Assembly (NCBI GenBank): GCA_043228905.1
Contig: JBHGNT010000009.1
Location: forward strand, 7,440,001 to 7,504,000
Direction of reading: 5' to 3'
Source of the DNA: Azolla caroliniana
Lineage: Eukaryota > Plantae > Polypodiophyta
DNA: 64,000 nt
The translations under genes and the position numbers were made by a program. Positions within the stretch are counted from its first letter, which is position 1. Every line of letters begins with the position of its first letter. The notes under the pieces are model-generated. The model worked only from the letters and a program-made list of their open reading frames with translations, was not told the DNA's origin and did not search any database. This document shows positions 15,901 to 59,819 of this stretch, piece after piece.

Positions 15901-18194
15901 ACTAGTGAAGAAGATGGCCGATTGATGATGAGGATGGTGATCTTGATCCCAAGTAGATTAAACAAGATCCGTGAAATGAAGAAGACCTAGGTGATGACGA
16001 GGACATTGAAATACAAGTTCCACCTTGGGAAATTATGGGGACATACAAAGTTACAAAGGAATTTTCATGTGCATTTCTAATTTAATATTATAAATTCTAA
16101 TAGGTGAATGTTCAATAGACTAACATTATGAGGGTGGCCATGGGGTTTCTAACGAAAAGCAACTATTCGTTGCTTTTAGGGGTTCAATTTCCCTAAGACT
16201 TGTTTTACTTTTAAAAACTGTTATAAACCAATTTGCAACTATAAACTAACCACAAGTTAATTGTAACAGAGACTCACATAAGGTTGTAGCTCGCACGATC
16301 CCACCTATGCCGGAAAAGAAGCAAGATCTCCTTCAAGATGGTCTTTGTTTGCCACCATGTCCCAAAGTGTCATTGTAAATCCTCAATGATGTACTTTTGG
16401 GGGTGGGGTCTTTTCATTGATCCCTACATTACGAAACAAGGACATTTATGCAATTATGGGGCTTAAATATTAGAACATTCATAAGTGTAAGAAACATCTA
16501 CACTTCCAATGGTTCTCCATTTGAGGGAGATATGACTCCACAAGGTTGTCTAACCTCTTTTTGAACACAAGCCCAACTCCTAGGATAATAATGTCAAAAC
16601 CCATCAAGATTGTACATTAAATCCTCAGAAAACCAATACATGATTGGGTAAAAGAGGGGATTTGTCCCCAATCCCACACTTGGTTGATTTGAGGACATGT
16701 CAGTTGTAAGCTGGTTACAACGTGTAACACACCTCTTGTATGTCCTAACCAACAAAAAGAAGGGAAATTATTGACCATTGAAATGACACTAAACTTTACC
16801 TCAAAAACTCTCTTGGAATGATAACTCAGGTTCACACTAGCTCCTCATGCGGTTGCCTTTGTATTGTTGTGAGTCTAACAATGTCACATGAAGAGCAAAA
16901 GGAAATGGCAATGTATATATTTGAGTATGTATCAATTTAATACTTATTTTTGTGCGTGTGTATATGTATGTAAGCAGATGAACTGATATTTCCTATGTCC
17001 CATTCCCCTCTCATAACATACATAGTGCATGTTACACAAGTGCTCTCAAAAGAGGATGTGATAGTTAGCCATCCCATCATAGGGGGTTCTAGATAGATGG
17101 GTGGAAGGGTCGAGGGGGAATGCACTCGCTCAAAATTTACCCCTCATATTGTTGGAGGTGAGGCCGTCAATGTGGAAATAGAAACAACACTTAGGTATTG
17201 AAGACCAAGAAGTCGATGATAGATTAACAAGATGAGTAGATTAACGTCAAGAGTTGCAAGACAACTTAAGTTACCAGAATACAAGATCAAGACAGAGTGA
17301 GAGAGACACACACATAGAGGCACAAAATGTAATTGTATTATTAAAATGTTACAGCACAATGAGTGGCAACACCCAAGAACTAGGTCACAAAGTCAATTAT
17401 ATAAGAACTGAACTAGGACAACTACCCTTTGGCTTTATTGTAAATATGTCCTAATCTAGTATGTCCAAATGGGATAATGTGAATACAACCATTATACACT
17501 TGTATTCGACACTCCCCCGTAATGGGTGTATACAACAAAAATCTATAATAAGAGAATAAACAAAATACAGATTTATACAAAGAGATGTTTAAGACAATTC
17601 GGCTAGTTGCGGAATCGACAAATGCTAAATAACGAAAGCCGAATCAGCTAGTTCGAAAGACTGAAGTCGGATTAAACCCAATTGTCCAAAGTGTCCCAAG
17701 CTAATGGTGTGAGGCCATCTTTGCGTTCGACTCAATCGGACTGATTTCTCCTTAAGCCCATTTGGTACCTTAGTGACCGGAAACGGTCAGCCGAAAGACA
17801 CTTGGTCATCCCGTCTGTTATGTTGTCTATTGTAGAGATCTTCTCGAGACCGAGCTTATCTGTAGTTACATAGTCTCGAATGAAGTGATATCAAATGTCA
17901 ATGTGCTTCAAGACGTTATGGTGGACCGGGTGACAACACTTGATTGTCACTCTAGACAACTGAAGCTGAATTGGAGTTGGCTTGTCGAAATGTGCATGCC
18001 AACCGACCAAGCCATACAACCTCCTTCACCGCGTTGGACGTGGTTACATATTTGGCTTCGGTCGTTGAAGTGGTCGTGCATTTATGAAGTTTCAACTTCC
18101 ATGAGATCACTCCATTGCTGAATTTCAATACATATCCGATCGTCGACTTTCCGCTTTCCAGACATCTGGCAAAGTTCAAGTCGATGTAGCTGAT

Positions 18195-33872: not shown

Positions 33873-35550
33873 AGAAGCATGTGAAAAAGGTTTTGGAAGA
33901 TTTAACATGTCGAAAGCAAAACCAATAGCGCCTGCCTTGTCGACAAAGTACAAGCTGAATGCTAGGCAATGTCCGAAAAACGAAAAAGGACAAGGACGAG
34001 ATGAGGAAAGTACCATATGCCTCGGCCGTTGGTAGCTTGATGTATGCTATGGTCTATACAAGACCAAACATAGCATTTGCGGTCAAAATAGTAAGCCGAT
34101 ATATGAGTAATTCAGGAAGAGAATGTTACCCGCAAGAATATACGGGGAGGCATAAGGGTATGTGTAATGATGTGGTTGATGTGTATGTGTAAAGTAAATG
34201 AGTGTGTGAGGATGAGTATGTGTATGGACACATGCACAATTATATGCATGTGTACAAGAATGTGTAACGGTCTTATTTATAATGGTCATGTAACCGTTAC
34301 ATTGGATGTATTATATAAACCCTCTATGGGGTATGTAATGAAATATACATTTCCCCCCTCTCATTTGGTGTCATTTTCTATTTGTCTTTCTCTCTCGCTC
34401 TCTCTCTAACGTAACCCCCTTGGGACGGGGGTGAAGCCATTCTAGGCTTCACCCCCCACCCCAACAACACTTTTGGCACGCCGGGTGTGTTGTTGGGGTG
34501 GGGGGTGAAACCATTCGTCCCAAGGGGGTTACGTTAGAGAGAGAGCGAGAGAGAAAAACAAATAGAAAATGAAACCAAATGAGAGGGGGGAAATGTATAT
34601 TTCATTACATACCCCATAGGGGGTTTATATAATACATCCAATGTAACGGTTACATGACCGTTATAAATAAGACCGTTACACATTCTTGTACACATGCATA
34701 TAATTGTGCATGTGTCCATACACATACTCATCCTCACACACTCATTTACTTTACACATACACATCAACCACATCATTACACATACCCTTATGCCTCCCCG
34801 TATATTCGTACGGGTAACACATGACACACCTGTGGGACAGTGCATTGCACGGTGAACCCACTCGCCATGGCAACTCTTCTCGACCGGAACTCCATCGGTC
34901 GTCTCAATGGTCGGAAATCCCTTGACCGGATCACAGCTCTACGATCGATAACTTCAATCGGATCTTTGCTTGACTCGAGCCTTCTCGTTCGGTCAACACA
35001 AGTCACGATTGGATCATACACCAATCAGCTAGTTCAATGTGGCATGGGTCGTGAAATCGTGTTGTGCATTTGTGTATTCTTTCTTTCATCATGTGAAGTG
35101 AGTTTTATATTTTTTACCATTTGGTCTTTAAAATTTTTACCCTCAAATTTTTTGAAATTTTATTTTCGGTCCTTGTGTTTTCGAAATTCTGCATTCTGCC
35201 CTCCAAAATTTAAAATCTCATGTCATGCCCTTGAGCTTTTGAAATTTCATCTTCTCTGCCCTTATACCCTTGAGCTTTTATAATTTTATCTTTTGCCCTC
35301 CAGTTCTTAAAATTGTGATAATGCCTTTATGTTTTTGAAATTTTTCTCTTTTCCCCTTTCTCTTCTCTTTCTTTGATTTTTGAAATTCGTATTCCAGCCT
35401 TTCAATTCTAGCAGATGGCGGCGGCGACAACAATGGCAGCGGCAGCAGCAACGATGCCGACGGTTGTGATGGTGGCAACGATGGCGGCGATTGCGGCGGC
35501 GGCAATTCACATCTCCACGATGGATATCAGGCCCTCTATCTCAATATTGC

Positions 35551-35790
35551 TTAGGCCTCATATTGATGAAGTCTTCTCTTTTTAGCATCAACAACCAATT
35601 TTACATCCTCTATTCTTTTGGCCTCTACTTCAACTCTCAATTTCACTTGACACTCACATTCTTCTCGAGCCAAAGCTTCTCCCTTTTTAGCATCCGCTTC
35701 TCTTCTAAATTTCCTTTCTTCCACCTGTGAACCTCTGCAATTGAGCATTGGTATTGTTTGTCTATGCGGCGTGCAAGCTCTCTTTAATTC
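35551..35790 (-). pseudogene. GLE1: Captured fragment resembling the coiled-coil region of the mRNA export factor GLE1
   Basis: Broken translation 'RELARRIDKQYQCSIAE / SQVEERKFRRE...EALAREE' versus plant GLE1 'KEVERKLDLQYQRKVAE...SQIEERKIR' (from memory), with an internal deletion and frameshifts. Confidence 0.55.
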
Positions 35791-35801
35791 CTCTTCTCTT
35801 T

Positions 35802-36223
35802 CAACCCATTGATCTGAACCCGAGTGATGAGTGGATTAACATGGCCATGGCAGGTGTTCCACCACATCTGATCATGAAGAGTGCTTTGAAAGGGATTGCT
35901 TTCTGGATTGGCTAGAAGGATGTTGAAATATAGCTAACAGTGAAGAAGGCTCAACATTTGCGGCAGAGATACAATGAAATGCAGGCAAAGTTTGTGGAGA
36001 AGATGGAGCTTGCTCAAGTAGCTTACAGAAAGTGATGAGATAGGCTTAGTCTCTTAGGAATGAATATGATAAACTGAAGAAATCCACAATACAACAATCT
36101 TGTAGAGATCCATTTCCAATACAGAATGGAGTACGACCAATGTTTTCTGAGCCTTCAGGATTTGAAGATTTATCCGCACACCATCACGGTCGTGGTGCTT
36201 CATCTGCTATTCCTCCAGTGACT
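35802..36223 (+). pseudogene. HEI10: Captured intron-free fragment of the meiotic crossover E3 ligase HEI10 (CCNB1IP1), post-RING coiled-coil region
   Basis: QPIDLNPSDEWINMAMAGVPPHLIMKSALKGIAFWIG*KDVEI*LTVKKAQHLRQRYNEMQAKFVEKMELAQVAYRK, then SLRNEYDKLKKSTIQQ. Compare plant HEI10 (from memory) 'PVDINPNEEWINMAMAGISPQILMKSA...MQAKFSEKMEQVHTAYQK...LRSEYESVKR.AIQP'. Both stops are TAG where Gln is expected. Confidence 0.85.
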
Positions 36224-38758
36224 TGATTTCTAGCCTGCAACGAGACCTTGAGCTCCTCCTGACCTCAATAACCTTCTGAACAATAGTATGTACCAGAACA
36301 AACTTCAACCATGAAGTCAGCCAGATAGTTTACAACTACTCGGGGTCCATCCAATGCTCTCCAAACTTGCTTCTTTCACCTATGAAGAGACCATCCTCTA
36401 GCTTGGGAACAGAATATACGTATGAACATAATAGAAGCTGAGGAATGAGAATGCAAAAATCATCATCCATCTGCTTTTGTGGTGAATGTTTGTTGAATCC
36501 CTTGACCAATAATGTAAAAGTTGTTGAGAAGGTTGTACTTTCTTGTGGCAAAGTTGCATATTAGTAATAGAGCTTCTCTTTTCTGCCTTTTAAGTTGCTT
36601 TGACCCTCATCACTGCAGAGGGGCAATGGCCAAGGAACAAAAGGAACATGAAAGAGAATGGGATGAAGGCAGAAAGAGTGGTGACCACGATCTTAGTGAT
36701 CGCAGAGAAGGAGTTGGTTCTCTCAATCTCCTAGGCCACAAGTTTGTCAGAGAACGTCTTCAATGTGGCCATAGCCCGCACCAACATCGTGAAGATCTCC
36801 TCAGCCAGGACTCAGAGCAGTATAGGTGGATGAGGACAGCTGATGGTTGTGGTGGGGAGCTTGGGCTTTTTCCGTGAGAACATGCTTGCTTCTTCGTCGT
36901 CGTCCATTGCTGTTGTTGCTGTTGCAGCTCGCCATAGCCAAAGCTCGACGAGTTCTGTTTGTTCGTAGGGAGAGACACAGAGAGAGAGACAGACAGAGAA
37001 AAAGAGAGATAGAGTAAGACTATTGTGGATATCTCTATCAGAGGTTGGCTCTTCCACAGAGAGTTCATGCACAAATCACACTCAAAGACGAACACACAAA
37101 GAGGGGGCAAGAGAGAGATTGATAATGGAGAGGGAAGAGTGAGGGATAGACTTCCTCTCAAGGGAGGTCGTCCCACCAAGCGTGCCAAAAGTGTTGTTGG
37201 GGTGGGGGGTGAAACCTAGAATGGCTTCGCCCCCATCCCAAGGGGGTTACGTTAGAGAGAGAGTGTGAGAGAAAGACAAATAGAAAATGACACCAAATGA
37301 GAGGGGGGAAATGTATATTTCATGTTGAGAATCAAGCTCAACATGGTCTAGTGTGTGAACTCACCTTGAGAGTGAATAGACACTCCAACGGTCAAGAGTC
37401 ACCATAATGTCACCTCTTTGTATTCTAGCATTTAGTATGAGTCATAGAATCATATTCTATGACACATAACTTATTAGCTTTCACATTCCCCATGCTCCAT
37501 GAGTCTTGTAGTTAATGAAGAGAGAGGGTGACTATATAAAGCACCCTCCTCCCACCTTGTAGTTGGTTGAGTCTTTCTCGTTTGTTAATATACTTTTACC
37601 TTGCGTACTCTCTGTGTCTTACTCCTTGTCTCTTCATTCTCTCTCTCTCTCTCTCATACACACACACAGTTCACACCTATTCTGCTACACAAGAATCATA
37701 CCCGATTCTTTACAAGGTATCAGAGCGATTTGGTAGCTCGATCTAGCCCATTCGCCTCATCGTGATCGTGTGTTGTGCTCCACGCCGACGACCAAGAACC
37801 GGCTCATCGCTATCGTAGCTTCGCTACATAGCTCGCATTCGAAGAGAGGAGAAGAAGAAGAAGAAGAGTCGACATAATGAATACTCAAATGGGGAGCGCT
37901 CTCCCTACCGAGAAGTTGGATCGAAACAACTTCGCATCTTGGGAGTACAAGATGCACCAATACCTTGTCGGACAAGGCTATTGGAGCTACATCAAAGGAG
38001 CGCATGAAGACTGACCCGCCGAAGCAGCTCCCGGATACGCGACATGGCAGCAAGCCGCAAGCCACGTGATGTATTGCTTGGCGACATGTGTTCACAATCA
38101 CATGCTCGGCTACATTCGCGAAGCCAAGACGCCAAAGGAGGCATGGGAAAATCTACGAAAGATTTTCGTGGTGAACACAACCGCAAGAAGGCTTCAACTC
38201 CGCCAAGAGTTGAACAACATTCAACAAAGGGACATGTCCATTACGACATACACCTCAAAGATCAAGGAGCTTTGCGATTCGCTCGGCTCAATAAGCGTAA
38301 ATATCGATGATGATGAGATGGTTCAAATATGCCTCGGTGGCCTCGCACCACGGTTCGGCCCGATGCGAACCGCCGTTCTAGCACGGGAGAAATCTCCCTC
38401 CTTCTTCGAGCTCCAATCAATGCTATTGGTCGAAGAAAACCACGTGCGTACAAGGAGCAATGAGTCGGAAGGCCACATGCTCTACACGCACTCGAACGGA
38501 GGAAGAGGACGTGGACGAGCAAGAGGCCGATTCGGCCAAGGACAAGGCGGATGAGGTCTGACCTACGATAACAACTTCCAATTTCGGCCGCAAAACGGAA
38601 GCCAACGAGGAACCTTCGAAAGAAGGGGGAGCTTCCACTCCAGCCCGAGCCGTCAAAATGCAACCGAATGCGGATATTGCGGAAAGCTCGGCCACCACGA
38701 AGAAGAGTGTCGAAAGAAGATGCGCGAAACGGCTTCCACAAGCCGACAACTCACGAAT

Positions 38759-38934
38759 TACGCGTACAATTCTGACTACGAAGAGTATAGCGGAATGTAC
38801 GGGCACAACTCCGACTATGAAGATTGTGGCGGAATGTATGCACACAACTCCGACCTGGCGAAATGTACGGGCACAATTCCGACTACGAAGATCGTGGCAG
38901 AATGTATGCACACAACTCCGACCGTGGAGGAATG
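38759..38934 (+). repeat. Five tandem 29-39-bp units between the zinc knuckle and protease of Copia D
   Basis: Units of ta(c/t)g..cacaactccgactacgaaga..gtggcggaatg encoding Y(A/G)HNSD(YED)xGGM. Confidence 0.85.
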
Positions 38935-39656
38935 TTCATGATGAAACATAGAGCAAACTCTATGTCGGCCTCTACCTCAACTAGTGCCTCCGGTTCGGAA
39001 GACGTATGGTTCGTCGATTCCGGTGCTTCTAACCATATAACATCGCATCAAGAATGGTTTCGAGAACTTCGATAGCCGGACCTACCCGGCTATGTCGAAA
39101 CCGAAGACGACACTACGCACCCGATTCGACACATCGGCAATGTTCCATTCAGAAAAGAAGGTAAGCAAAATTACATTAAAAATGTCTTGCATGTACCGAC
39201 CATTACGAAGAATTTGGTCTCCGTCGGCCAAATTGTAGAGCAAGGGATGCAAGTTCGATTTAATCAAGGCGGTTGCTTCATCAAAAAAGAGGGTCGACTC
39301 ATCGCACGCGGAAGAAGAGAGGGTCGGATGTTCATTCTTGATTCACACGAGATGAAATCCGCCATGTTCGTGAAAAGCACGAAAGCCGACTCCAACATAG
39401 AGCTATGGCATAAGCGAATCGGCCACATCAATCTCAATAAACTCAAAGCAATGAAATCGAAAGGAGTCGTCATCGAACTCCCGACATTCAAAGAGAAGGA
39501 GATTGAAGGTGTATGGGAAGCGTGCCAATTCGGCAAACAACACCAACACCCATTCCCGAAAGAGCGGAACGTGAGCAAAGGTCTACTCGACGTAGTCCAT
39601 TCCGACGTATGGGGACCGGCACAAACGGCTACATTCGGCAAATGCTGATACTACGT

Positions 39657-40304
39657 TGTCGTGAAGAAAACCGTCCCCTGGCGTAATCGGTGAATAGCAC
39701 ACAGGAACCGGCCCTTCACGTGTGCTCTCTCTTAATATATATAATAGAGAATTAGGTACAGAGAGAGATCCGGGGTAGTTAGATTTGGTAGGTAGGAAGT
39801 AAATGAGGGAGACAGCTCCCCTCTTGACGTTATAAAGGAGAGGGAGACGCAGGGAGAGAAGGAGGGGCATTAAGGAGGACGAAGTGTTGTCGAACCGAGA
39901 CCGAACGCTTCTCCTCTGTCTGTTCTCTGTTGCCCTTCTCTGCAGGTTTCGGGAGGCTCGCGCTGCTTCGAGGAACGCCCGTGTGCTCCCGGCAGGACCT
40001 CCATCCTATTCCCATTTCGTGTGTAGACGAACAGGCATCGGCATCTGTCCGCCGGCCTGTTCGGTTGTAGCTGCTCGCGTGTTCTGCTGTGTACTCATTA
40101 TTCGTTAATATACAAACACTTGCTTCTTCCTGTCTCTGTGTCCCTTCGCGTCTTCTATGTTGACGGGCCACGCCCCTGTGTTTCTTTGCTCATACGTGAC
40201 CGGGCCTCTCTCTCCTTCTCTTTCCCCTTCTATCACCTGCTCTTCGGTTCAAGACCCCGGTGGTCCCGCCTTGTTTCTCCACGCACGCGCGTAACAACGC
40301 GACA
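39657..40304. mobile_element. 648-bp solo-LTR-like insertion with a 4-bp TSD in the integrase of Copia D
   Basis: tgtcg...cgaca; ACGT at 39653-39656 and 40305-40308; removing it restores 'YYVLFIDDFSR'; TATA-like ttataaa near 39830. Confidence 0.85.
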
Positions 40305-41233
40305 ACGTGCTCTTCATCGACGACTTCTCTAGGAACACTTGGATCTACCCAATGTGGCAAAAGAGCGAAGTGTTCGGACACTTCCAAACATTCAAGAATG
40401 AAGTCGAGAAAGCCACAGGATGACATGTACGTTGTCTTTGATCGGATGGCGGCAAGGAGTACTTCTCGGACGATTTCACGGCGTATCTCCGAAAGGAAGG
40501 AATTCGGCGAGAATTCACTTGCCGACACACTCCGCACCAAAATGGAGTAGCTAAGCGCAAAAATTGGCACATCCTCGAAGTAGCGCGGGCCATGATGAAC
40601 GAGAAGCATATGCCCAAGTCATATTGGGCCGAAGCTGCAATTACGACCGTCTACCTAATGAACCGATGCACAACATCTGGCGTGCACGAGGTCACTCCGC
40701 ACGAAAAATACTTCGGAAAGAAGCCAGACTTATTGCACACCCGGATATTCGGCACGATAGTGTACGTGCACATTCCCGACGAGAAGCGTCAAAAGCTTGA
40801 CCCAAAGTCGGAGAAATGTATCCTCGTAGGATACTCACTGGAGCAAAAGGGGTACAATTGCTACAACCCCGCAACTCGAAAATCTCGAGTAAGTCGAGAC
40901 GCCATTTTTTACGAGTCCGCATCCGGGTATGCACCAGAGACGACTCCGACTCCGACTCCGCTCAACCCGGAATCCGCCGAACCAGAGATAGAGGATGAAG
41001 ATCGCCTTACGCGCATGGTCAAAGAAAGTCTGATCACGACCCAACTGAGCGGACCACAAGAGCCTTTGAGCGATCAAAGCACATCACGGCCTAGCCCGAA
41101 GATGGACAAAGGCAAGGCGAAAATGGCGGAATTTGCAGAGATGAGTCGACTCACTCACTCGACAGTGAGTTCGGCGGCTTCGATGTACCAATCGGAGCTA
41201 AGAAAGACCTCATCTCTGCAAATAAAAAACTCC

Positions 41234-44200
41234 TGTCATGATATGGCAAGACTCGAACCCATGACCTTATGCTACATGGGTCGACCTCTTGACCATTAGA
41301 CTATACATTGTAATACGTAAAATATTATTTTCATTTATGTTTTATTATAGAAAATTGATGTATATTCCAGATTTCTCTGGAACATTCTAGAAACTTCAGG
41401 AGTTTTCCTTAGAACACTATAAAAGGAGGCACAAGGCATTATTTCGAACCAAATCGGTTCAACGCTAGTCTTAAGCCTCCTAGCTACTGTACATTTTCTT
41501 CACATAATATATATCTTTTCTTATCATCACTCACTCTCTCTCTCTCTCTCTCTCTCGATCTCTCTCGATCTCTCTCTCCCTCCCTCTCAGTCAATCTTCC
41601 CTTCTCTCGAGAGTTCTTCACCTCTCTTAGTACTAATACTTCTTTTAGTACTAATACTTCTTTTAGTACTAATTCCTTCTTTGTCTTAGTACTGTTCCTG
41701 ACAATTTGAACCGATTTTCCTACCTTCTGTCTCTCTCATTTCCTACTAATCTCTTATTCCTCTTTTCTTTCATCCCATGGCCACTATTAGCACTGATGAA
41801 TATCAATCTGTTTTCTTGGAATTTCAATGCTTGAAAGAGAAGTTCCATGCTTTGGAACAAGAAAACCAACGGTTGCTGGGGGATCTTTAGCAAATCTCCT
41901 TAGAAAGCAGCAAACGCAACAATAGCATGGGGAACTTGTGTTACGCGTGCAACAACTCGAAGCAACCATCGTAGCGATGCAACAACAAGGGCCCGAAACG
42001 CAAGGGATTCATAAAGAATCCAAGATTGGCCTTCCCACGAAGTTCGATGGAACGCGATCGCAGTTTAGAGGGTTCCTTAACCAGGTACGATTAGTTATTC
42101 AAATGCATCCTTCCCGATATCCCACCGATGCATCACGAGTGGGTTTAGTAGGCACTTTGTTAAGTGGCTCAGCGTTGGCATGGTTCGCTCCACTATTAGA
42201 AAAGGAATCTCCATTACTCAACAATTTTGAAGAGTTTCTAAGTGAGTTTAAAGCATGTTTCGGAGATACTAACAGCATCAGGACCGCAATCAACAAAATT
42301 CGGCGATTACGCCAAGGTGACCGTCCAACCTCCGCATACACTGCAAATTTTCGCCTACTCGCCGCCGATATCCCTTGGGATAATCAAGCGTTGATGGAGC
42401 AATTCCGTTATGGTTTACGCAACGACGTCAAGGATTTACTCTTAACCTTCCCCGAAGAGCCAAAGTCCTTAACAGAAGCAATCAGTCGCGCGGTGAGATG
42501 TGACAACCACCTCTTTGAGCGACGTTCGGAACGACAGCTACAGATGCCGAGGGCAAGATCAGAGCCCACCTACGCCTCAGTGGTAGCAAGACCTTTTCCG
42601 AGGGAGTCATATAATGCGCCTCTAGCGAATACTCCGACTCCGATGGAGATTGACACTACACGTCGTCGAGGGCCATTATCCGAAGAAGAAAAATAGCGAC
42701 GCCGTACAAATCGACTATGTCTTTACTACGGTGGACCAGGACATATTGCAATAAATTGCCCCCATAGGCCAAGAAGACAGGTAAACCAAATAGTCGCTAG
42801 TTCTAATTGTACTAAACCCGAGCCTATTTCAGTAGGGATATCTGATAGTCCTAATAGTACTAATAGCCCAGATCTAGCGAACAGATTTGATGTCCTTAGT
42901 CAGTTAGAAGAAGAGTTAAACGACTAAGTCCAGCCAAAATAGGAGCCGTTTGGTTGGATAACCCTAGATCTGTGCAGCCCATTAGTGGTTCCATTCCCTC
43001 TAAGCAAGTTAGTGATGTGTTTGTAGCCCAAGTAATAGTTAGTACTAAAAGTACCCCTCCAGTACATGTCCTAGCACTCCTAGATTCCGAAGCTAACTCT
43101 TGCTTTATGGATAAGAAATTTGATCAAGCTCATAAGATATCCCTAAGAAAACTCTAGTGTCCAGCCTCTATAGTAGTCATTGATGGACGTCCAATTGCTC
43201 CCGGAAATATCATAGAAGAGTCAGAGCCCATTAATATTGTCCTAGATAACTTAGCATGTGTAGTATCATTTAATATTATTAGTATCCCAGAACATCCCAT
43301 AGTTTTAAGATTACCGTGGTTCGAGTTACATACCCAGACATAGATTGGAGAACAAGAGAAATCCGGTGTCAACAAACCCAAGGGTCAACTCAGAAGATGG
43401 CAACCATTTCGCTACGTCAGTTGCGTAAAGAAGGGCGCAAGGAGGAAATGTTCCTCTTTGCAATATCAGTAAACCCCTCCAGCACCACTAAAGAAGAATC
43501 CACCGTTCAACTTCCCGAGAAGTGTCGTCATTACGCCGATGTGTTCGATAAAGTACAAGCCAATACACTTCCTCATCATCGACCGTACGATTGCCCCATC
43601 GATTTACAACCGGGAAAAGAGCCGCCATGGGGACCGATCTACAATTTGTCACCAACCGAGCTAGAAGTCCTTCGGGCCTATATAGAGGAGAATTTGGAAA
43701 ATGGTTTCATTCAACATTCCAAATCTCCAGCCGGCGCGCCCATTTTCTTCGTCAAGAAAAAGGATGGATCGCTTCGTCTCGTTGTAGATTATCGTGGCTT
43801 GAATAAGGTTACAATCAGGAATAGGTATGCTCTTCCCCTTATCTCAAGTCTTTTAGAATGGATCAGTGGTGCCAGGTTCTTCACGAAGATCGACTTACGG
43901 GGAGCATATAACCTCGTACGGATCCGACCAGGAGACAAATGGAAGACCGCGTTTCGCACCAGATATGGGCACTTCGAGTATAGGTCATGCCGTTCGGCCT
44001 CATTAATGCGCCGGCAGTCTTCCAGCACATGGTTAATGATATATTCCGAGATCTATTGGATGATTGTTTGATCATCTATTTGGATGATCTACTGGTTTAT
44101 TCAAAGACCCAAGAAGAACATGATTCTCATGTACTATTAGTACTAAAATGACTTCAAGAACATGGGTCTGTATGCAAAGCTGGAAAAATGTAGTTTCAGG

Positions 44201-46940
44201 TGCAACCAAGTGGAATTTCTCGGCTACATCATTTCGTCAGAAGGCATCTCCATGGACCTAGCTAAGGTTAAAACGGTGGTAGAATGGCAGACTCCGCATT
44301 CAGTGCGGGATGTGCAATGCTTCCTAGGCTTTGCCAATTTTTACCGGAAGTTCATACAAGATTACTCAAAGATCGTTCTACCTCTCACACAACTTACCAG
44401 GAAGGGACAACCGTTCATCTGGTCTGAAGAAACGGACATGGCTTTCGAGATTCTTAAAAAGGTCTTTACATCGGCTCCAATTCTAGCTCATGTAGATCCA
44501 GAAAAACCATTCATTATCGAAGCTGACGCATCGGATTTTGCATTGGGGAGCATTCTGTCACAACAAGGGAATGATGAGAAGCTACATCCTGTGGCTTTTC
44601 ACTCACGCAAGTTTGACGCCGCCGAAATCAACTACGAAATTCATGATAAGGAGCTATTGGCAATAGTGGATTCTTTTATGCAATGGAGGCATTTTCTGGA
44701 GGGTTCCTCTCATCCGGTCACCGTATTTAGTGACCACAAGAACCTTGCCTACTTTCAGGATGCTCGTGTGTTAAATCGACGTCAAGCTCGGTGGGCCCAC
44801 TTCCTCACGTATTTCGACTTCAAAATTAAATATCGTCCGGGGAGGCACCAAGGGAAGGCAGATGCATTATCACAACGTTTGTATCTAGCACCCCGTCCCG
44901 GCGAGCCAGCTTTCGATAACCTAAAACAAGTCATCTTGGGACCGGCACAACTACAAGCAACACAGATCTTTGACATGCCCATGGATTCCAGCGTTATCGA
45001 TACCATATACGAAGACTTGAAGACAAATGCGTTCGCCCAAGCTATACTAGCACAAATTGATCCCTCTCGAGCATCGTGTTCACAGTCGCAACCACCAGGT
45101 ACGGACTATCGGCAATTCAAATACCATGATGGATTACTCTTCTTTAAAGAACTTTTGTATGTTCCTAATGGTTCTTGCCGCTTTCAAGTAGTACAAAACT
45201 GTCATGACACATATACAGTTGGGCATTTTGGTAGTACTAAAACATTACATTTAGTACAACGATCATTTTGGTGGCCCTATATGTGACAATTTGTCGAGGA
45301 TTTTGTTCGGACTTGTGATACATGCTGCAGAGCGAAAATGCCAAGGCATCATCCATATGGTTTATTAGAACCATTACCAATTCCAAGCAAGCTGTGGCAA
45401 TCCATTGCTCTAGACTTCATCACAGATCTTCCAATCTCTAAGGGGTTCAATGCGATTCTAACGGTGGTTGATCGATATACGAAGATGGCTCATTTCTTGC
45501 CATGTACTAAGGAGATCTCCAGTGAAGACACTGCCGAAATTGTCATGTGTGAAGTATGTCGGCATCATGGACTTCCCGATAGTATCATCAGCAACCGTGG
45601 ACCCCAGTTCGTGTCAAAATTCTGGAAGCACCTTTTTAACACGCTCAAGGTCATTTGTAACCTCTCCTCCGGCTACCACCCACAAACCAACGGCCAAGCG
45701 GAACGAACCAATCAAACGCTGGAGCAGTATCTATGATGCTTTCTCAACTATCATCAGGATGACTGGGCAGATATTCTCCACTTCGCCGAATTTGCCTATA
45801 ACAACTCTATCCACGTATCCACTAAAGTTATGCCATTTTATGCTTATACGGGATGTCACCCCTGGTGGTGTGTACTTGAAACCCTAGAGGTGTCCACAAA
45901 TCCTTGCGCAGAGGATCGTTTGGAGAGGTTACGCAAGATACAAGCGGATTTATCTACTCATCTCCAACAAGCTCAACAAACACACAAGGTTTATGCGGAT
46001 CGTCATCGACTCCCATCTAGTTTTAACATTGGAGATTGGGTATGGCTACTCCGATGACACATCAAGACTACTCGCCCATGCGAAAAGTTGGATTATCAGC
46101 GATTAGGTCCTTTCCGTATTATAGGAAAGATTAATGATGTCGCTTTTCGTCTTGATCTACCTCCACAACTTCGGATACATCCGATGTTTCATAGTTCTCT
46201 CCTCGAACCCTATCAAGAGAGCACCATCCCAGGACGTATTACATAGCCTCCACCCCCGATCGAGCTTGAAGATGGACCTGAGTACGAGGTTGCCGCCATC
46301 CTTGATTCCAAGCTTGTTCGCAACAAGCTCTACTATCTAGTCGATTGGCTACGATATAGTCCCAGCGAGCGTACTTGGGAACCGATAGAGAATGTCACCA
46401 ATGCTCGTGCTCTTCTTGAAGACTTCCATCGTCAATATCCAGACAAACCGGGTCCTCAATCCAAAACGACTCGTTACACTTGTCGTTTTAAAGGGAGGAT
46501 AGTGTCATGATATGGCAAGACTCGAACCCATGACCTTATGCTACATGGGTCGAGCTCTTGACCATTAAACTATACATTATAATACATAAAATATTATTTT
46601 CATTTATGTTTTATTATAGAAAATTGATGTATATTCCAGATTTCTCTAGAACATTCTAGAAACTTCAGAAGTATTCCTTAGAACACTATAAAAGGAGGCA
46701 CAAGGCATTATTTTGAACCAAATCGGTTCAACGCCAATCTTAAGCCTCCTACCTACTGTACATTTTCTTCACATAATATATATCTTTTCTTATCATCACT
46801 CTCTCTCTCTCTCTCTCTCTCGATCTCTCTCTCCCTCCCTCTCACTCACTCTTTCCTTCTCTCGAGAGTTCTTCACCTCTCTTAGTACTAATACTTCTTT
46901 TAGTACTAATTCCTTCTCTGTCTTAGTATTGTTCCTGACA
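41234..46940 (+). mobile_element. Ty3/Gypsy chromovirus E, Tcn1/Tf1-sushi-like, nested in Copia D. LTRs 41234-41703 and 46503-46940
   Basis: TSD actcc/actct; sushi-type gag (PTKFDGTRSQFRGFLNQ), protease ALLDSEA, RT ([21 protein letters not shown]), RNase H, integrase, chromodomain EYEVAAILDS..YYLVDW..YSPSERTWEP; PPT aaagggaggatag; no tRNA PBS. Confidence 0.95.
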
Positions 46941-49150
46941 ACTCTGTCGCTCCACCCGTGAAAAGAACCCCGTAAGTCGATTCGGCTACAACAATTATAT
47001 GGCATACCATTATGCCTTTGCGATGAAGGTGGCGACAGTACACAAGCCGGAAACTTTTTCCGAAGCAACCAAGGATCCGCGATGGATCGAAGCCATGAAC
47101 GAGGAGTTGCAGGCACTATGCAAGAACGAGACATGGGATCTCATTCCCACCTCACCACACAAAAAGGCGATCGGATGCAGATGGATTTACAAAGTGAAGT
47201 ACAACGTTGACGGTTCCGTCAACCGCTAAAAAGCGCGACTCGTAGCGAAAGGCTACGCCCAAACGCATGGAGTTGACTACGAGGAGACCTTTGCCCCGGT
47301 GGCAAAGATGACGACGGTACGGACCGTAATTGCGCTTGCCGCGGCGAAAGGGTGGCACCTCCATCAAATGGACGTCAAGAACGCCTTTCTACAGGGCGAA
47401 TTAGAAGAGGTGTACATGATACAACCACCCGACTTCGAATCACGCATTCATCCGAAAGTTGTGTGCCGACGCAAGAAGCCACTCTATGGCCTCAAGCAAG
47501 CACCGCGTGCTTGGCATTCGAAGATAACGCAATATCTTCATCAAATCGGCTTCCATATGTCAAAATCGGATAACTCCCTCTACATACGAAGCGATTCCGC
47601 AAGCCCGATCGTCATCATCTTATATGTGGATGACCTAATCATTGGAGGTGAGCATCTCGTCAAAATCAATAAGGTCAAATCCCTCCTTTCTGACAAGTTT
47701 GAGATGACGGACATGAAGGAGCTCCACTACTTCCCCAGCATCGAGGTAATTCGGACTCCGGCCGGAATCATGATCTCTCAATGGCACTACATCCTCAACT
47801 TGTTATACAAGTTCAGGATGGTTGAGTGCAAATCTGCGACAACCCCACTCGATCGCAATCTCAAACTCGATTCGAACTCCGGCACCAAAGCGTGTGAGCC
47901 GACCCAATATCGGCAACTCATCGGAAGTCTCATCTACCTCACGATCACATGACCCGATCTCAGTTATCCGGTCGGTCTCCTTAGCCAGTTCATGCAAACA
48001 CCGCGTGACACTCACTTGGATTGCGCTAAGCGAGTTCTACGATACGTGAGCGGCACAATGGATTGTGGCATCCTCTACAAGACTGCGATGCCAATACGAC
48101 TCGAGGGGTACACAGACGCCGATTGGGCCAGCTACAAAGCCGATAGAAGATCAACCTCCGGATTTGTTTTCTCCCTCGGCAGCGGAGTAATATCCTGGAG
48201 TAGCAAGAAGTAGCCTACCGTCGCTCTTTTGAGTACAGAGGCGGAATACAGGGGACCAGCCGTAGCTGCATGTGAAGTCGTATGGCTCAAGAGGATTTTG
48301 AAGGATCTAGGCGTTCCCATCAAAGATCTGACTCCCCTTTACTGCGACAACATGAGCAGTATTTATTTGGCTCGGAACCCGGTGTTCCACGCACGGACAA
48401 AGCACATCGAAGTGCACTATCACTTCATTCGAGAGCGCGTTCTAGCTGGCGATGTCGACCTACAACACATTAGCACCAATCTTCAAACGGCCGACATCTT
48501 CACTAAAGCTTTAGGAGCCGACAAGTTAAGGCAATTCATGACCGATCTCGGATTGACGATCCCTGACCTGCCAAGCTTGAGGGGGCAAGACACTACGCAA
48601 TCGCAATAACGCGTAGATTCCGCAACCGCGCAATGAAGCCGCGAAGAGCCGATCTACCGCGCAAAGCCGCGAAGAAAGACGCAAGCTGAAGCACAGACTT
48701 CGCAACTACACACAACGCAAGCTGGAGCACGGATTCCACAACTCCGCATAAATGTGAGTCGACACGGATTCCAGAACGCGAGTCGAAGCGGATTTCGGAT
48801 ACCGTCTGAAACCGGCCCGACTTGAGCTTGAGGGGGCGTGTTGAGAATCAAGCTCAACATGGTCTAGTGTGTGAACTCACCTTGAGAGTGAATAGACACT
48901 CCAACGGTCAAGAGTCACCATTATGTCACCTCTTTGTATTCTAGCATTTAGTATGAGTCATAGAATCATATTCTATGACACATAACTTATGAGCTTTCAC
49001 ATTCCCCATGCTCCATGAGTCTTGTAGTTAATGAAGAGAGAGGGTGACTATATAAAGCACCCTCCTCCCACCTTGTAGTTGGTTGAGTCTTTCTCCTTTG
49101 TTAATATACTTTTACCTTGCGTACTCTCTGTGTCTTACTCCTTGTCTCTC

Positions 49151-49197
<47 letters not shown>

Positions 49198-49850
49198 CAC
49201 ACACACAGTTCACACCTATTCCGCTACACAAGAATCATACCCGATTCTTTACATTTCATTACATACCCCATAGGGGGTTTATATAATATATCCAATGTAA
49301 CGGTTACATGATCGTTATAAATAAGATCATTACGCATTCTTGTACACATGCACATAATTGTGCATGTGTCCATACACATACTCATCCTCACACACTCATT
49401 TACTTTACACATACACATCAACCACATCATTACACATACCCTTATGCCTCCCCGTATATTCTTACGGGTAACAGGGAACACTAGGCAGCTATAAAATGGA
49501 TACTCATGTACTTGAAAGGCACCTCAAGGGTATGCCTCAGTTATGGTTTCAGAAAACCTATGCTCAAAGGTTTTACCAACTCAGACACATCAAGTTATGT
49601 GATGACCTATGCATGAGGAGCAGTGTCATGGCAATCGAGATTACAAAAGGTTGTGGCTTTGTCGACCACAGAGGCAGAATATATGGCTGCAATAGAGGTT
49701 AGAAAGGAGCTAATATGGATGAAGAATTTTCTCAGTGAATTAGGAATGAAACAAGAAAAATTCTTACTCCATTGTGACAATCAGAGTGCCATACATCTAA
49801 CTAAGGACGCTGCTTACCTCTCCCGGACCAAGCACATACAAAGAAGATAT

Positions 49851-50000
49851 CACTGGTTACGAGACAAAGTGGATGAGGAAGAGTTTACCCTTGTGAAGAT
49901 CCATATTGATGGTAATGGATCTGACACTGGTTACGAGACAAAGTGGATGAGGAAGAGTTTACCCTTGTGAAGATCCATATTGATGGTAATGGATCTGACA
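49851..50000 (+). repeat. Perfect 74-bp tandem duplication in the RNase H of Copia F
   Basis: cactggttacgagacaaag...ggatctga occurs at 49851 and 49925, with CA microhomology. Confidence 0.92.
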
Positions 50001-50879
50001 TGCTCACGAAAACCCTACCTATGGATAGACTCAGAGCTTGTTGACAGAAGACTAGATTAGTTGACTCTCCTTATAAGAGTGAAGGGGGAGTTTGTTAGGG
50101 TTTTGTCCCTCCTAATGAGAGAAGTTGGTAGTCGAATTGGAGGAGTTGACAAACCGAATTCAAGATGGTCGATCAGATCAACCAGCGAATCAACTTGGTA
50201 GTCGACTAAGTATAGGAATAATGGTAGTCAAATGTATTGGATGGATGATCCAAGTGAAAGACTAGGCCGACTAGTCGGCCTGACCTGATGGTCGAAGACT
50301 AGGCCAACTAGTTGGGCCGACCTGATGGTCGAAGACAAAGTCTGATAGTCAGACCGACTGGATAGTCGACATAGGAGTCGGCTAGTCGAATCGACTAGAC
50401 TGTCGACTTGTGGGTCAGACAGTCAAGTCGACCAGTCGATTAACTGTTGTTATTATTATTATATAATAATAACGCTTTTATAAATATGTGGAGCTAGGGA
50501 AAACTTTATAGGGAAGAAGGTGAAAGTTGAGTGTAATATAGTAGTACTACATAGAGAAGGAAGGAGACAAGAGAGGAAGTGAGTGTAGGCATGGTTAGAG
50601 GAACTTGCCAAAACCCTAAGTGGGGATTCTCTGATCATCAAAGATTTGTAATCTGTTTTTCTTGTACTTCTATCCATAGTGAAAAATCTATTGCCCCATG
50701 GTTTTTCCCTGTTTTAGGGTTTCCACGTAAATGTTGTGCACTGTGTATTTTGTTTTCTGTTTTGTGCTTTCAGCTCATCCTTCTTGCTTAACCTACGGTC
50801 CTAAATTCAACAAAAGGTATAATGTGTAGAGTGCAAAGGTATTGAGTAATCTTTTATCTGCATCTATAAGGGTTGTCAT

Positions 50880-51200
50880 AAGGATGACTTTTGGAAATTT
50901 GGCGATGGAAAGAAATTCATGACTCCTTATCAATGCATTATATGCCAGACATTGCATTTTCAAATGAGTGTGGTTAGCTTACACATGTCAAATTCTTAAC
51001 TATGTTATGGTAATTATATGCCAGACATTGCATTTTCAAATGAGTGTGGTTAGCTTACACATGTCAAATTCTAGAAGGATGCTATCAAGATGATATTTAG
51101 ATATCTAATTGGCACTAAGTATAAGTGTTTATGTTTGGGTAAATGTAATATTGTATACACAAATTATTGGATATACGGATTATGCCAAATGTTCTGATTA
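50880..51200 (+). mobile_element. Old Copia RT scrap with a ~60-bp near-tandem duplication
   Basis: 'PDIAF..SVVS' and 'DAIKMIFRYLIGTK'; attatatgccagacattgc...gtcaaattct occurs twice (~50937 and ~51013). Confidence 0.6.
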
Positions 51201-52528: not shown

Positions 52529-55500
52529 TATTATAGATCTTAGTACTAATGTAAGCTTAAGATAAGGATAAAGTAATGATAGATAGAAAGGAGAAAGAGA
52601 AAGAAGGGTGCTGATCCACCCGACCACCCCCGAGCGAAGGGATCGAGACGGACTCGAGCCTCGATCGGCGTCCCATACCACCGCCGTGGCATCAAGTCGT
52701 ACCTGGTGCTGGCGCGCTCGCTACAAGAGTTGACCCACCACACGAGCAGAGTCTCGATGTAGTCAAAAGATGATCCAATGAGGGTAGCTAGGCCTCTTAT
52801 TTATAGCGATACCCAAGGCCCCCAAGCAAGTTCACAGTTGACCTAATGGGTTGTCTCAATCCCGAGGATTAAAAGTAATCCTCCCCTTCTTTACACTCTC
52901 GTTTAACCCTCACACTTATCCATGTGTATAGAATACTACGGTAAATTCTTACCACGGGATATTATATGGTCATGCCCGTAACATACTCCCCCTCTTTAAA
53001 ACATTGCACTCTTGCAATGGAAAGTTAGGGAAGTTAGTTCTAAGAGTATTTTCGCGTTCCCATGTGGCATCTTTTATTGATTTATCCATCCATTTTATTT
53101 TAAATTCTCGGATTTCTTTAGTACGTAATTTTTTTGTTTTAACATCGAGAATTCTTTCTGGTACATGTGGTTTAGAAGATAATTCTTCAGAAGTAACCAG
53201 AGTTTTAGTCGTAACTGTATTGTCGCCAGAACCTAGAAGTTCTTTTAGACGACTCACATGAAAGACTAGATGAATTCCGACACCATCGAGAAGAACGAGA
53301 CGATAGGCTGATGACCCAATGCGTTTGAGGACTGTAAAAGGTCCACAAAACCGTGGGGCTAACTTAGCGCACTTACCTATAGACAATGTCTTAGAATTGT
53401 GAGGTACACGTAAAAATACCTTCTGTCCAGGGTTGAATACACGAGGTTGCCTATGATGATGGGCATAAAAACGCGCTCTATCTTGAGCTGTTTTTATATT
53501 ATCTCATGCAATATGCAACATATCTTGCATATCCCGAAGAAAGTTTTGCGTACTTCGCAACTCATCATGATGTATATTAACATCAATCGGGGCTCGTGGC
53601 TGAAAACCATACATCAACATAAAAGGACTATATCCCGTCGACGTATGCTTGGAGCTGTTATAAGCAAACTCCAAAATTGGGAGATAACGTTCTCATTTTG
53701 TTGGTTTTGCACCAACGTATGCTCGAAGCATGTCCTCAATAATTTGATTTACTCGTTCTGTCTGTCCATCGGATTGAGGATGATCCGTGGAGCTCATGCT
53801 CAACGTAGTTTCTAACTTCTTAAAGACTTGTGTCCAGAAGTCACTAGTAAACTTTGGATCTCGATCACTCATGATATCCATCGGTAACCCATAAAAACGA
53901 AACAATTCGTCAACGAATTGGTAAGCCAATTCAGGAGCTGTTACCGTGGTTTTAGTAGCAATAAATCTGGCCATTTTAGTTAGTCCGTCAACAACAACCC
54001 AGATGGCATCATGACCTTTTTGGGTGTGAGGAAGGCTAACAATAAAATCCATGGATATACTTTCCCACTTATTATTGGGAATGTCCAAGGGATGTAAAAG
54101 TCTTGCGGCTTTAAGTCGCTCGGCTTTGTTAACCTGACACTGGTGACATTTAGTCACATAGCTATGTATGTCAGGACGCATCTTAGGCCAATAAAATTGA
54201 GTGAAGATGAGAACAAGTGTACAATGTATTCCAGGGTGCCCTGCTGAGGGTGCATCATGGCATTCAAAAAGAATCCGCTTTTTGACCTCGGGTAAATCTG
54301 GAACACAAACCTTCCCATTATGGTAGAGCAAATTGTTAGCAATGTGGAAGTATTCCTTCAAGGATGTGGTGGTGTCTGTTCCAGACTCAACTCTTGCCCA
54401 GTATTTTGCGAAATAACTGTCATCAGGATACTTTCCTCGAAGGTGATCATAAAGATCTGATGATATTGCAGTGAAGCTAAGCATGTTAACTTCACGGATG
54501 CGACTTAGTGCATCAGCGACAGTGTTCATGGAACCTTTACGATATCGTATGGAAAAATCAAAGTCCTGGATGAGATCAGCCCATCGTGCCTTACGACCTT
54601 TCAGGTCTTGTTGGTCACAAAAATATTTCAAGGACTCGTGGTCCGTAGTTACCACAAAGTGATTTCCATAAAGATAATGGCGCCATGTTTTGAGCGCATG
54701 TATAACTGCAAATAATTCCTTTTCTTGAACGGTATACCGACATTGAGCAGAATCAAGTTTCTTACTCTCGAATGCTATTGGTTTACCATCTTGATACAAG
54801 ACAGCACCTATAGCATAATCGCTTGCATCGGTTTCAACCTCAAAAGGTTTTGAAGGATCAGGTAAAAGAAGTGAAGGAGCCTTGCAAACCAGGTCCTTGA
54901 GTTCCTTAAAGGCAAGGTCTAGTGTAGCATTCCACACAATAGGTTTTGTAGACTTACGCGTTTGACCTTTTAAAAGATCAGTAAACGGCATCGTCAATTG
55001 GGAGTAATTACGAAGAGACTTTCGCAAAAACCCCACAAAACCAAGGAATGATCGAACTTCTCGAATATTCTGAAGAGTGGGCCAAAGCTTGATTTTCTCA
55101 ATGCGAGAAGGATCAATTTCAACTCCTCGTTCGGTTATGAGATGTCCTAGATAAGTAATTGATTTCTTGAAGAACTCACATTTTGAGATCTTTGCATAAA
55201 ACTGTTTGTCACGCAATGTTTGTAAAACAAAGCGGACATGTCTAGCATGTTCTTGTAATGTACGGCTATAAACTAAAATATCATCCAAGAAAATAACGAC
55301 AAATTTTCCAAGTTGTTCTCGGAAAATGTCATTCATTTCTTGTTGAAAAGTAGTCGGAGCATTGGTCAAACCAAAAGGCATAACCAAAAACTCATAATGG
55401 CCATAGTGCGTACGAAATGCCGTATTAGGAACATCGTCCTCACTTATTCGTATTTGATGGTAGCCAGTACGGAGATCAAGTTTCGTAAAATACCGAGCTC

Positions 55501-59541: not shown

Positions 59542-59819
59542 TTGGGCAACCCATTCTTGGGCAATTATGTGTGCCATTTGAGCTAAGCGTAAGTCTAATC
59601 AATTCAACGCTATTTTTCTCAACCGTATGTACTATTCGAGCAATTGTGCATCCCCCCAATAATGAGTGTATCTCTTCATGTGGAGTTGTTCGCGAAACTA
59701 CTTGGAAGTTAAGGGAGACAATGAGAAAAAGTGTGGGTTTTTGGTTTTGGGACAATGAAAGAGACCATCAGAAGTGCAAGCTTTGTGTCAGCTGTATGAA
59801 CTTTGAAGTTTGAAGAAGG

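What the first reader, a model, noticed from the sequence alone, without database searches (positions are those of the whole stretch)
34820..37169. Non-autonomous LTR element whose cargo is host-gene fragments, including antisense HEI10
Seen: the 2.35-kb interior between a tRNA-Arg PBS and the 3' LTR has no recognisable gag/pol. It contains an uninterrupted ~77-codon HEI10-like stretch (35802-36032) joined to a more C-terminal HEI10 piece (36050-36223), on the strand opposite to the element. This sits head-to-head with a GLE1-like piece (35551-35790), and further coding-looking segments at 36230-36940 remain unidentified. Established: HEI10 is a dosage-sensitive regulator of class I meiotic crossovers encoded by a multi-exon gene, and LTR elements such as maize Bs1 can capture spliced mRNA pieces. 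Inference: this is a 'Pack'-type LTR family that picks up co-packaged mRNAs, possibly in sporogenous cells. LTR-driven transcription would give antisense HEI10 RNA that could act on the host gene in trans.
Basis: partly seen in the sequence, partly recalled or inferred. Interest (0 to 1): 0.85.

Follow-up and report, generated by a model that had tools for sequence, protein, structure and literature searches.

The report
Fern retroelement carrying spliced gene scraps
A small multi-copy jumping element, probably from a fern, carries broken pieces of three host genes (an intron-less, backwards piece of the crossover gene HEI10, the start of a histone-methylase gene and a likely GLE1 piece) that were likely picked up from messenger RNA during reverse transcription; it also has a second tRNA site where the usual second-strand start signal should be, which likely primes that strand, while an effect on HEI10 itself is untested and probably slight.

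Summary
Mostly confirmed, with corrections. The interior has no gag/pol. The HEI10 piece is real (E 5e-27, fern proteins), antisense, runs 35802-36441 to the stop codon, and has two stops in the supposedly uninterrupted part. It lacks three introns conserved in 5 of 5 genomic HEI10 loci examined, so it came through mRNA. The gap is a 35-codon internal deletion, not exon skipping. The 'unidentified' part is the HEI10 C-terminus plus an ATXR5/6-like 5' piece (PHD, E 1e-10). GLE1 rests on recall. Contigs from three DNA runs show several copies with the same cargo, decayed by C>T changes and 9-13% from host-like RNA contigs. This is Bs1-type capture; antisense capture is already known in maize Sireviruses, and nothing here shows regulation of HEI10. 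This scan noted that design before on other DNA of this genome; my searches found no paper on it. This copy also has an extra inverted LTR cap inside its 5-bp target duplication.

The parts
34119..34123 (.). left copy of the 5-bp target-site duplication, inside a host Copia pol-like frame
   Evidence: GAGAA left, GGGAA right (4 of 5); the flanking frame reads ...NSGRE then H*AAIKWIL once five bases are counted once
34124..34469 (+). LTR A: extra LTR, inverted relative to the element; its U3 end is the left integrated end
   Evidence: 8 substitutions in 337 columns to LTR B, 14 in 351 to LTR C
34474..34487 (+). first 14 nt of a PBS behind LTR A, joined directly to the U5 end of LTR B
34488..34819 (-). 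LTR B: 3' LTR of the element, with a 14-nt deletion near its U5 end
   Evidence: 12 substitutions in 337 columns to LTR C
34822..34838 (+). inverted second tRNA site (anti-PBS) at the PPT position, 2 nt from LTR B; two transitions in this copy
   Evidence: purine share 0.45 in the 20 nt before the LTR on the element strand; G at 34824 in 13209 of 13557 and 11541 of 11895 depth; G at 34828 in 7858 of 11814 and 9082 of 10838
34839..35280 (-). 3' internal region shared with a very high-copy family
   Evidence: summed contig depth in the thousands up to about 35100, falling to cargo level by about 35280
35410..35572 (.). GC-rich triplet segment, unidentified, low copy
   Evidence: no Pfam hit; depth 35-243
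35573..35806 (-). host mRNA piece, probably GLE1 coiled-coil region (name recalled), sense to the element, with a 46-nt deletion at a 4-nt overlap
   Evidence: X14 record 11: 35573-35732 to 567-726 and 35729-35806 to 769-848, 21 differences in 238
35802..36441 (+). spliced HEI10/CCNB1IP1 piece, about residue 52 to the stop, antisense to the element; stops, frameshifts and a 35-codon deletion near 36040-36050
   Evidence: RNA contigs 12 and 13 (36 differences in 421 listed columns)
36442..36610 (+). probable HEI10 3' UTR (inferred from position and composition)
   Evidence: follows the stop at 36439-36441; a SET-domain reading of the other strand failed
36612..36964 (-). ATXR5/6-like 5' piece: start codon at 36935, N-terminus and PHD finger, sense to the element
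   Evidence: best PDB hit ATXR5 PHD 5vab, E 9.6e-11, next hit KDM5A PHD 1.8e-8; RNA record 14 (40 differences in 297), DNA record 30 to 36964
36965..37169 (-). CT-rich low-copy leader
37170..37187 (-). PBS, 4 nt from the 5' LTR (tRNA-Arg by recall)
37192..37322 (-). LTR C (5' LTR), R/U5 part
37323..49253 (+). younger Copia inserted into LTR C, with its own 5-bp duplication
   Evidence: TTTCA on both sides; LTR pair 6 substitutions in 392; Copia gag, E 2e-21
49254..49473 (-). LTR C, U3 part; right integrated end
49474..49478 (.). right copy of the target-site duplication

Best explanation
This is a protein-less LTR retroelement whose coding interior is replaced by pieces of three host genes, the HEI10 piece lacking its introns, likely captured from messenger RNA by reverse-transcriptase template switching and likely moved by the enzymes of a high-copy relative, with a second tRNA likely priming the plus strand at the inverted site that replaces the polypurine tract. 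Shown: anatomy, cargo identity for HEI10 and the PHD piece, intron loss, several cargo-bearing copies, absence of a PPT, family-wide anti-PBS, a 5-bp duplication. Inferred: capture inside virus-like particles; the antisense HEI10 piece taken up while the opposite strand was being made (about 50%; a DNA-level patch from a cDNA or older retrocopy about 35%); tRNA priming of the plus strand (about 60%). After capture the chimera was copied several times, lost further internal stretches and decayed by cytosine deamination; the cargo is most likely passive. The inverted LTR cap of this copy likely arose when a plus-strand strong-stop piece (LTR plus 14 nt of PBS) was joined to the U5 end of a full cDNA before the two U3 ends were integrated.
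For: Intron loss: 5 of 5 genomic HEI10 loci run (of 66 fetched) have introns after residues 63, 73, 157-158 and 213-216; the cargo reads straight across 63 and 73 and aligns over residues 169-228 with no insertion; Ceratopteris isoforms differ by an insert after residue 215. Copies: contigs bridge the GLE1-like/HEI10 junction (X1 record 3, 5 differences) and the 3'UTR/ATXR junction (X1 record 6, 34 differences); a further 97-98-nt deletion with filler stands in X1, X3 and X5; P0121 shares the chimeric tail. Age order: cargo 9-13% from RNA contigs against 3.6% between LTRs B and C. Decay: against run X14, 57 of 110 differing places have A/T here for G/C there, 15 the reverse. Anti-PBS. Precedent: Bs1 and multi-gene LTR chimeras (PMC13317346, PMC5131818; passages).
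Against: The simple template-switch model puts mRNA pieces in sense, and HEI10 is antisense. Intron loss shows an RNA stage but not that it happened inside this element's particles. Host introns were not seen in this species; they are inferred from four angiosperm-like loci and one bryophyte-like locus. Splicing could not be shown for the ATXR5/6-like or GLE1-like pieces. No autonomous partner lies in the window. Summed contig depth is no copy number. Plus-strand tRNA priming has no direct test here.
Confidence: 0.75

Rival explanations
1. One reading: LTR-driven antisense HEI10 RNA or small RNAs from these copies tune the host HEI10 gene, and so crossover number, in trans.
For: Antisense orientation, about 640 nt of coding sequence plus probable 3' UTR, several copies. 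Precedents: siRNA cross-talk to donor genes in maize (10.1101/777037, passages); LTR-linked antisense retrocopies silencing PxyMasc (PMC9674220, passages). HEI10 dosage sensitivity is recalled.
Against: About 9% divergence from HEI10-like RNA contigs (36 of 421) would leave roughly one 24-mer in nine perfectly matched (my arithmetic, assuming even spread). Copies delete parts of the HEI10 piece independently (joints) and show deamination bias. This copy's 5' LTR is split by an 11.9-kb Copia between its TATA-like region and the R/U5 part.
Confidence: 0.1
2. DNA-level patching: a HEI10 cDNA or an older processed pseudogene was copied into the element during break repair, which would place it in either orientation; only the sense pieces came by template switching.
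For: Antisense orientation; filler bases at later deletions (table 5c); no orientation bias in Sirevirus captures.
Against: No poly(A) tract or local duplication is visible at either end of the HEI10 piece; it abuts the other pieces without spacer, like the multi-gene LTR chimeras of PMC5131818.
Confidence: 0.3
3. Strand-symmetric replication: because each strand has a tRNA site next to an LTR end, both sense and antisense transcripts are reverse-transcribed, and each captures mRNA in its own sense; HEI10 came in on an antisense cycle.
For: tRNA sites face inward from both LTRs; TATA-like words on both strands of the LTR; cargo in both orientations; both integrated ends here are the same LTR end.
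Against: PPT-bearing Sireviruses also capture in both orientations; no antisense transcript with terminal redundancy is shown; one locus only.
Confidence: 0.15
4. The anti-PBS is a relic of a head-to-head fusion of two 5' ends and plus-strand priming uses something else.
For: Loose ends show the site next to several different LTR ends (before 34809 and 34816, before 34816); this copy transposed or persisted with a decayed site.
Against: The tRNA-matching letters are the majority form in both runs at fixed 2-nt distance; the two changes here are deamination-type; no shared alternative 3' end appears among the listed loose ends behind 34819 (16 and 23 contigs, agreement 0.40 and 0.38; 380 rows were not shown).
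Confidence: 0.25

Closest known systems
Maize Bs1 (PMC13317346 and PMC5131818, passages)
   Same: LTR element whose interior holds pieces of three unrelated host genes, none full length
   Different: No chimeric ORF survives here; one piece is antisense; no PPT; about 2.3 kb interior
LTR-mediated retroposition (Tan et al. 2016, PMC5131818, passages)
   Same: Partial mRNAs replace the element's ORFs; several parent genes; chimeras go on transposing as non-autonomous elements
   Different: Their copies are young and mostly expressed in sense; junction microsimilarity could be seen here only at one deletion (4 nt)
Gene capture by maize Sireviruses (10.1101/777037, passages)
   Same: Exon fragments in LTR elements, both orientations, possible siRNA cross-talk
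   Different: Copia lineage; cross-talk measured there, untested here
Pxyfem of Plutella xylostella (PMC9674220, passages)
   Same: Multi-copy, spliced, LTR-linked antisense retrocopy of a key developmental gene
   Different: Small RNAs shown there and identity up to 96%; here about 91% and decaying, no small-RNA data
Non-chromovirus OTA Ty3/gypsy elements and canonical LTR anatomy (Neumann et al. 2019, PMC6317226, passages)
   Same: TG...CA LTRs, tRNA PBS, 5-bp TSD
   Different: Paper states most elements have a PPT before the 3' LTR; this one has an inverted tRNA site. Lineage cannot be assigned from this copy, which encodes nothing; OTA comes from earlier notes of this scan
TRIMs incl. Helenus/Ajax (PMC10886601, passages)
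   Same: Short LTRs, non-coding, 5-bp TSD
   Different: TRIMs are under 1 kb with PBS and PPT; Helenus has tRNA-like sequence inside the LTR that does not prime; here it lies outside the LTR at the PPT position

Membership tests
LTR retrotransposon (non-autonomous) | two direct LTRs with TG...CA ends | tested here: met
   LTRs B and C, 12 substitutions in 337 columns
LTR retrotransposon (non-autonomous) | PBS just inside the 5' LTR | tested here: met
   37170-37187, 4-nt spacer; which tRNA is recalled, not tested
LTR retrotransposon (non-autonomous) | polypurine tract before the 3' LTR | tested here: not met
   purine share 0.45 in the last 20 nt; best 15-mer 11 of 15, 66 nt away; inverted tRNA site instead
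LTR retrotransposon (non-autonomous) | 4-6-bp TSD directly at both LTR ends | tested here: inconclusive
   5-bp duplication (4 of 5) exists but encloses the extra inverted LTR A, not LTR B
LTR retrotransposon (non-autonomous) | no gag/pol | tested here: met
Bs1-type / LTR-mediated retroposition chimera | captured piece lacks introns | tested here: met
   HEI10: three positions; not shown for the other two pieces
Bs1-type / LTR-mediated retroposition chimera | pieces of several unlinked genes replace the ORFs | tested here: met
   three separate RNA-contig matches; HEI10 and ATXR5/6-like named; linkage of donors not tested
Bs1-type / LTR-mediated retroposition chimera | microsimilarity at switch points | tested here: inconclusive
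   4-nt overlap at the GLE1-like deletion; full donor sequences not available
Bs1-type / LTR-mediated retroposition chimera | further copies with the cargo | tested here: met
   junction-bridging contigs and deletion variants
Trans-acting antisense retrocopy (Pxyfem-like, siRNA cross-talk) | cargo transcripts and small RNAs that hit the donor gene | not testable with these tools
   only contigs of one guessed RNA run were available
OTA/Athila-like Ty3/gypsy | RT/RH/INT phylogeny | not testable with these tools
   no coding sequence in this copy and no genome held
Pack-MULE / Pack-TYPE DNA element | long TIRs with 9-bp (or 3-bp) TSD, genomic intron-bearing cargo | tested here: not met
   TSD is 5 bp, repeats carry PBSs, cargo is spliced; TSD lengths of these families are recalled
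TRIM (incl. Helenus) | under 1 kb with PBS and PPT | tested here: not met
   about 3.0 kb LTR to LTR without the nest, no PPT (definition)

The most novel reading that the evidence does not exclude
A PPT-less, two-tRNA LTR lineage replicates symmetrically from either transcript strand, so its non-autonomous members collect spliced host mRNA in both orientations and integrate with either LTR end; this one amplified antisense HEI10 beside a piece of a heterochromatin methylase gene, making a natural, multi-copy source of anti-HEI10 RNA in a fern.
Probability: 0.15. Interest if true: 0.85.

Novelty: new variant of a known kind. Interest (0 to 1): 0.5.

Why it matters
The capture itself is a known process; this is a clear fern-type example with exon junctions, including a minor-type intron position, removed exactly. 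The variant part is the vehicle: a protein-less element with no polypurine tract and tRNA sites at both inner LTR edges was still copied and integrated, so those cis signals appear sufficient. It is a compact natural substrate for asking whether tRNA can prime the plus strand, which would break a general rule of LTR elements. If small RNAs from the cargo did reach HEI10, a transposon would influence crossover rate; present evidence does not favour this.

Tried and rejected
Exon skipping for the HEI10 gap: rejected; the RNA contig has 136 nt where the window has 30, the 5' break lies near residues 131-136 and the 3' break near 168, while the exon border is at 158. SET-domain C-terminus at 36501-36602 (minus): 0 PDB hits at E 10; read as HEI10 3' UTR instead. 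Naming GLE1: Pfam nothing, representative search 1 hit, itself a cargo-like copy, atlas best score 0.75, a lead of no value, PDB 0 hits; the name stays recalled, and the 46-nt deletion fits the spacing I recall for plant GLE1. Word search with the PHD piece: 0 of 10 candidates. LTR B as a solo LTR: no duplication at its ends. Sequential nesting of two whole elements: would not leave the 5-bp duplication at LTR C's outer end. Assembly fold-back: LTRs A and B differ by 8 substitutions and a 14-nt deletion and the duplication encloses both. Pack-MULE, TRIM, Helenus: see membership. Rfam: 12 matches, all miRNA models far below cut-off, 10 on the A/B inverted junction and 2 on the LTRs' GT/CA-rich part. 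Folding of three pieces around the tRNA sites: z 0.35 to 0.97, no signal. Expression: no RNA holder listed; in X14, a guessed RNA run, 0 of 12 laid contigs reach 95%; neither is evidence. No genome held, so copies could not be counted. Literature: no paper on a second tRNA site replacing the PPT, on LTR capture in ferns or on captured HEI10 among the listed results; supplements were not read, and those of 10.1101/777037 (Figure S11c) and PMC6317226 may bear on orientation and PBS claims.
Full report
Anatomy. The element lies on the minus strand: 5' LTR C (49254-49473 and 37192-37322, split by a younger 11.9-kb Copia with its own 5-bp duplication), PBS 37170-37187, interior, 3' LTR B 34488-34819. 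B and C differ at 12 of 337 columns. Left of B sit 14 nt of a PBS and a third LTR, A (34124-34469), in the opposite orientation. The whole block 34124-49473 interrupts a Copia pol-like frame and is flanked by GAGAA and GGGAA; the frame resumes when five bases are counted once. Both integrated ends are therefore the same (U3) LTR end. No gag/pol family was hit by 34 translated frames or pieces of the interior.

HEI10. The piece hits two Adiantum RING proteins (2 of 9 candidates, E 5e-27, 71%); the first retrieves named CCNB1IP1/HEI10 orthologues across land plants. tblastn places three blocks: residues 41-127 (sound from about 52), 169-228 and 305-323, with the stop at 36439-36441. So the cargo is longer than reported and not uninterrupted: TAG at 35913 and 35931. 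The host is probably a fern, by these nearest named proteins.

Splicing. I fetched 66 metagenome loci with a HEI10 alignment and ran a spliced alignment on 5 of them, four closest to angiosperm proteins and one to the liverwort protein. All 5 have six introns, after residues 23, 47, 63, 73, 157-158 and 213-216, of 73-559 nt. The cargo reads WIN|MAM across 35840/1 and HL|IMK across 35871/2 with nothing inserted and aligns over 169-228 without an insertion. Two Ceratopteris isoforms differ by an insert after residue 215, which fits a splice site there in ferns. Host introns in this species were not seen directly. The gap is not exon skipping: an RNA contig has 136 nt where the window has 30 (record 12), about 35 codons from residue 131-136 to 168, with the exon border at 158 inside it.

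Other cargo. The minus strand at about 36612-36935 gives a start codon, an N-terminus and a PHD finger whose best of 60 PDB matches is the ATXR5 PHD (E 9.6e-11; next, KDM5A, 1.8e-8); PHD near the start of the protein fits ATXR5/6 (recalled). It matches an RNA contig at 40 differences in 297. 35573-35806 matches another RNA contig (21 in 238) with a 46-nt deletion at a 4-nt overlap; I recognise it as GLE1 from memory only, four tool tests gave no name. 36442-36610 is probably the HEI10 3' UTR; 35410-35572 stays unidentified.

Family and age. In three DNA runs of three studies (two labelled organism A, one organism B) every bin of the cargo is covered. One contig is identical to this copy over 185 nt at depth 20.5, while summed depth over the cargo has a median near 120 in that run: roughly half a dozen copies, a rough figure since summed contig depth is no copy number. 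Contigs bridge both cargo junctions, one with 34 differences in 268 nt, and a further 97-98-nt deletion with filler stands in all three runs. Cargo is 9-13% from the RNA contigs, LTRs B and C 3.6% apart, so capture came well before this insertion. Against the guessed RNA run, 57 of 110 differing places are A/T here for G/C there and 15 the reverse, the pattern of methylated DNA decaying (these counts include the element's own 3' region).

Primer sites. There is no purine tract before LTR B, whereas the nested and host Copia elements have one. Instead a PBS-like 17-mer faces inward 2 nt from the LTR. Laying 34490-35300 on two runs shows the two letters that spoil the match here are G in most of the family (97% and 67% of depth in X3, 97% and 84% in X5); depth just inside the LTR (about 14,000-16,000) is of the same order as over the LTR's U3 half (8,000-42,000); the listed loose ends behind the LTR are unrelated flanks (agreement 0.40, 0.38). 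I noted this before consulting earlier findings; and one search then showed the scan has recorded the same design many times in this genome, on Gypsy elements described as OTA-like. Those notes are unchecked; I tested the site and its family-wide conservation, not the lineage. Two literature searches found no description.

Mechanism. Most likely the enzymes of a high-copy relative package this RNA with host mRNAs; reverse transcriptase switches templates and replaces the coding interior, as proposed for Bs1 and animal chimeras (PMC13317346, PMC5131818; passages). One tRNA primes the minus strand at the PBS; a second likely primes the plus strand at the anti-PBS, leaving the 2-nt overhang that integrase normally trims (established knowledge, recalled). 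Sense pieces fit minus-strand switching. The antisense HEI10 piece needs a switch during the other strand's synthesis, an antisense element RNA, or a DNA-level patch; I cannot separate these, and both orientations occur in maize Sireviruses (10.1101/777037, passages). The cap A plus 14 nt of PBS has the form of a plus-strand strong-stop piece joined to a U5 end before integration; this is inference from one locus.

Regulation. Precedents exist, but the cargo is 9% diverged, independently deleted, and this copy's promoter LTR is interrupted. No small-RNA or stranded data were available. I give 10%.

Verdict. A real, multi-copy Bs1-type chimera with spliced HEI10, on an unusual PPT-less vehicle. 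New variant of a known kind; interest 0.5, carried more by the primer design than by HEI10.

Noticed in passing
window 34124-34487: Extra inverted LTR plus 14 nt of PBS caps the element, so both integrated ends are U3 ends inside one 5-bp duplication; whether other copies have it was not tested.
   Followed up: partly
L009, L011, L021, L022, L041: HEI10 introns after residues 23 and 73 begin GTATCC (GTATCT in one), the minor-spliceosome (U12-type) donor as I recall it, in all five loci; one search found no paper linking HEI10 to minor introns.
   Followed up: partly
window 35928-36027: Other copies delete 97-98 nt of the HEI10 piece and carry 5-6 filler bases, in two variants; seen in runs of two organism labels.
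   Followed up: partly
window 34488-34517: LTR B has a 14-nt deletion in a GC-rich hairpin near U5 that LTRs A and C lack; a few other contigs carry similar short forms.
   Followed up: no
window 37323-49253: Younger Copia nested in LTR C, itself holding another LTR element (LTR pair 41234-41704 and 46503-46941); its PBS begins AGG rather than TGG.
   Followed up: no
window 38751-38923: Three copies of a 39-nt-period repeat behind the gag zinc knuckle of the nested Copia.
   Followed up: no
window 52529-59542: Minus-strand LTR element with 456-bp LTRs 99% alike, a tRNA-Met-like PBS and an ordinary PPT.
   Followed up: no
window 49851-50009 and 50937-51072: Short tandem duplications (74-nt and 76-nt period) in and beside the host Copia's 3' end.
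   Followed up: no
window 35410-35572: GC-rich triplet segment preceded on the + strand by a splice-acceptor-like run; may be a fourth captured piece or a remnant antisense ORF of the parent element.
   Followed up: partly
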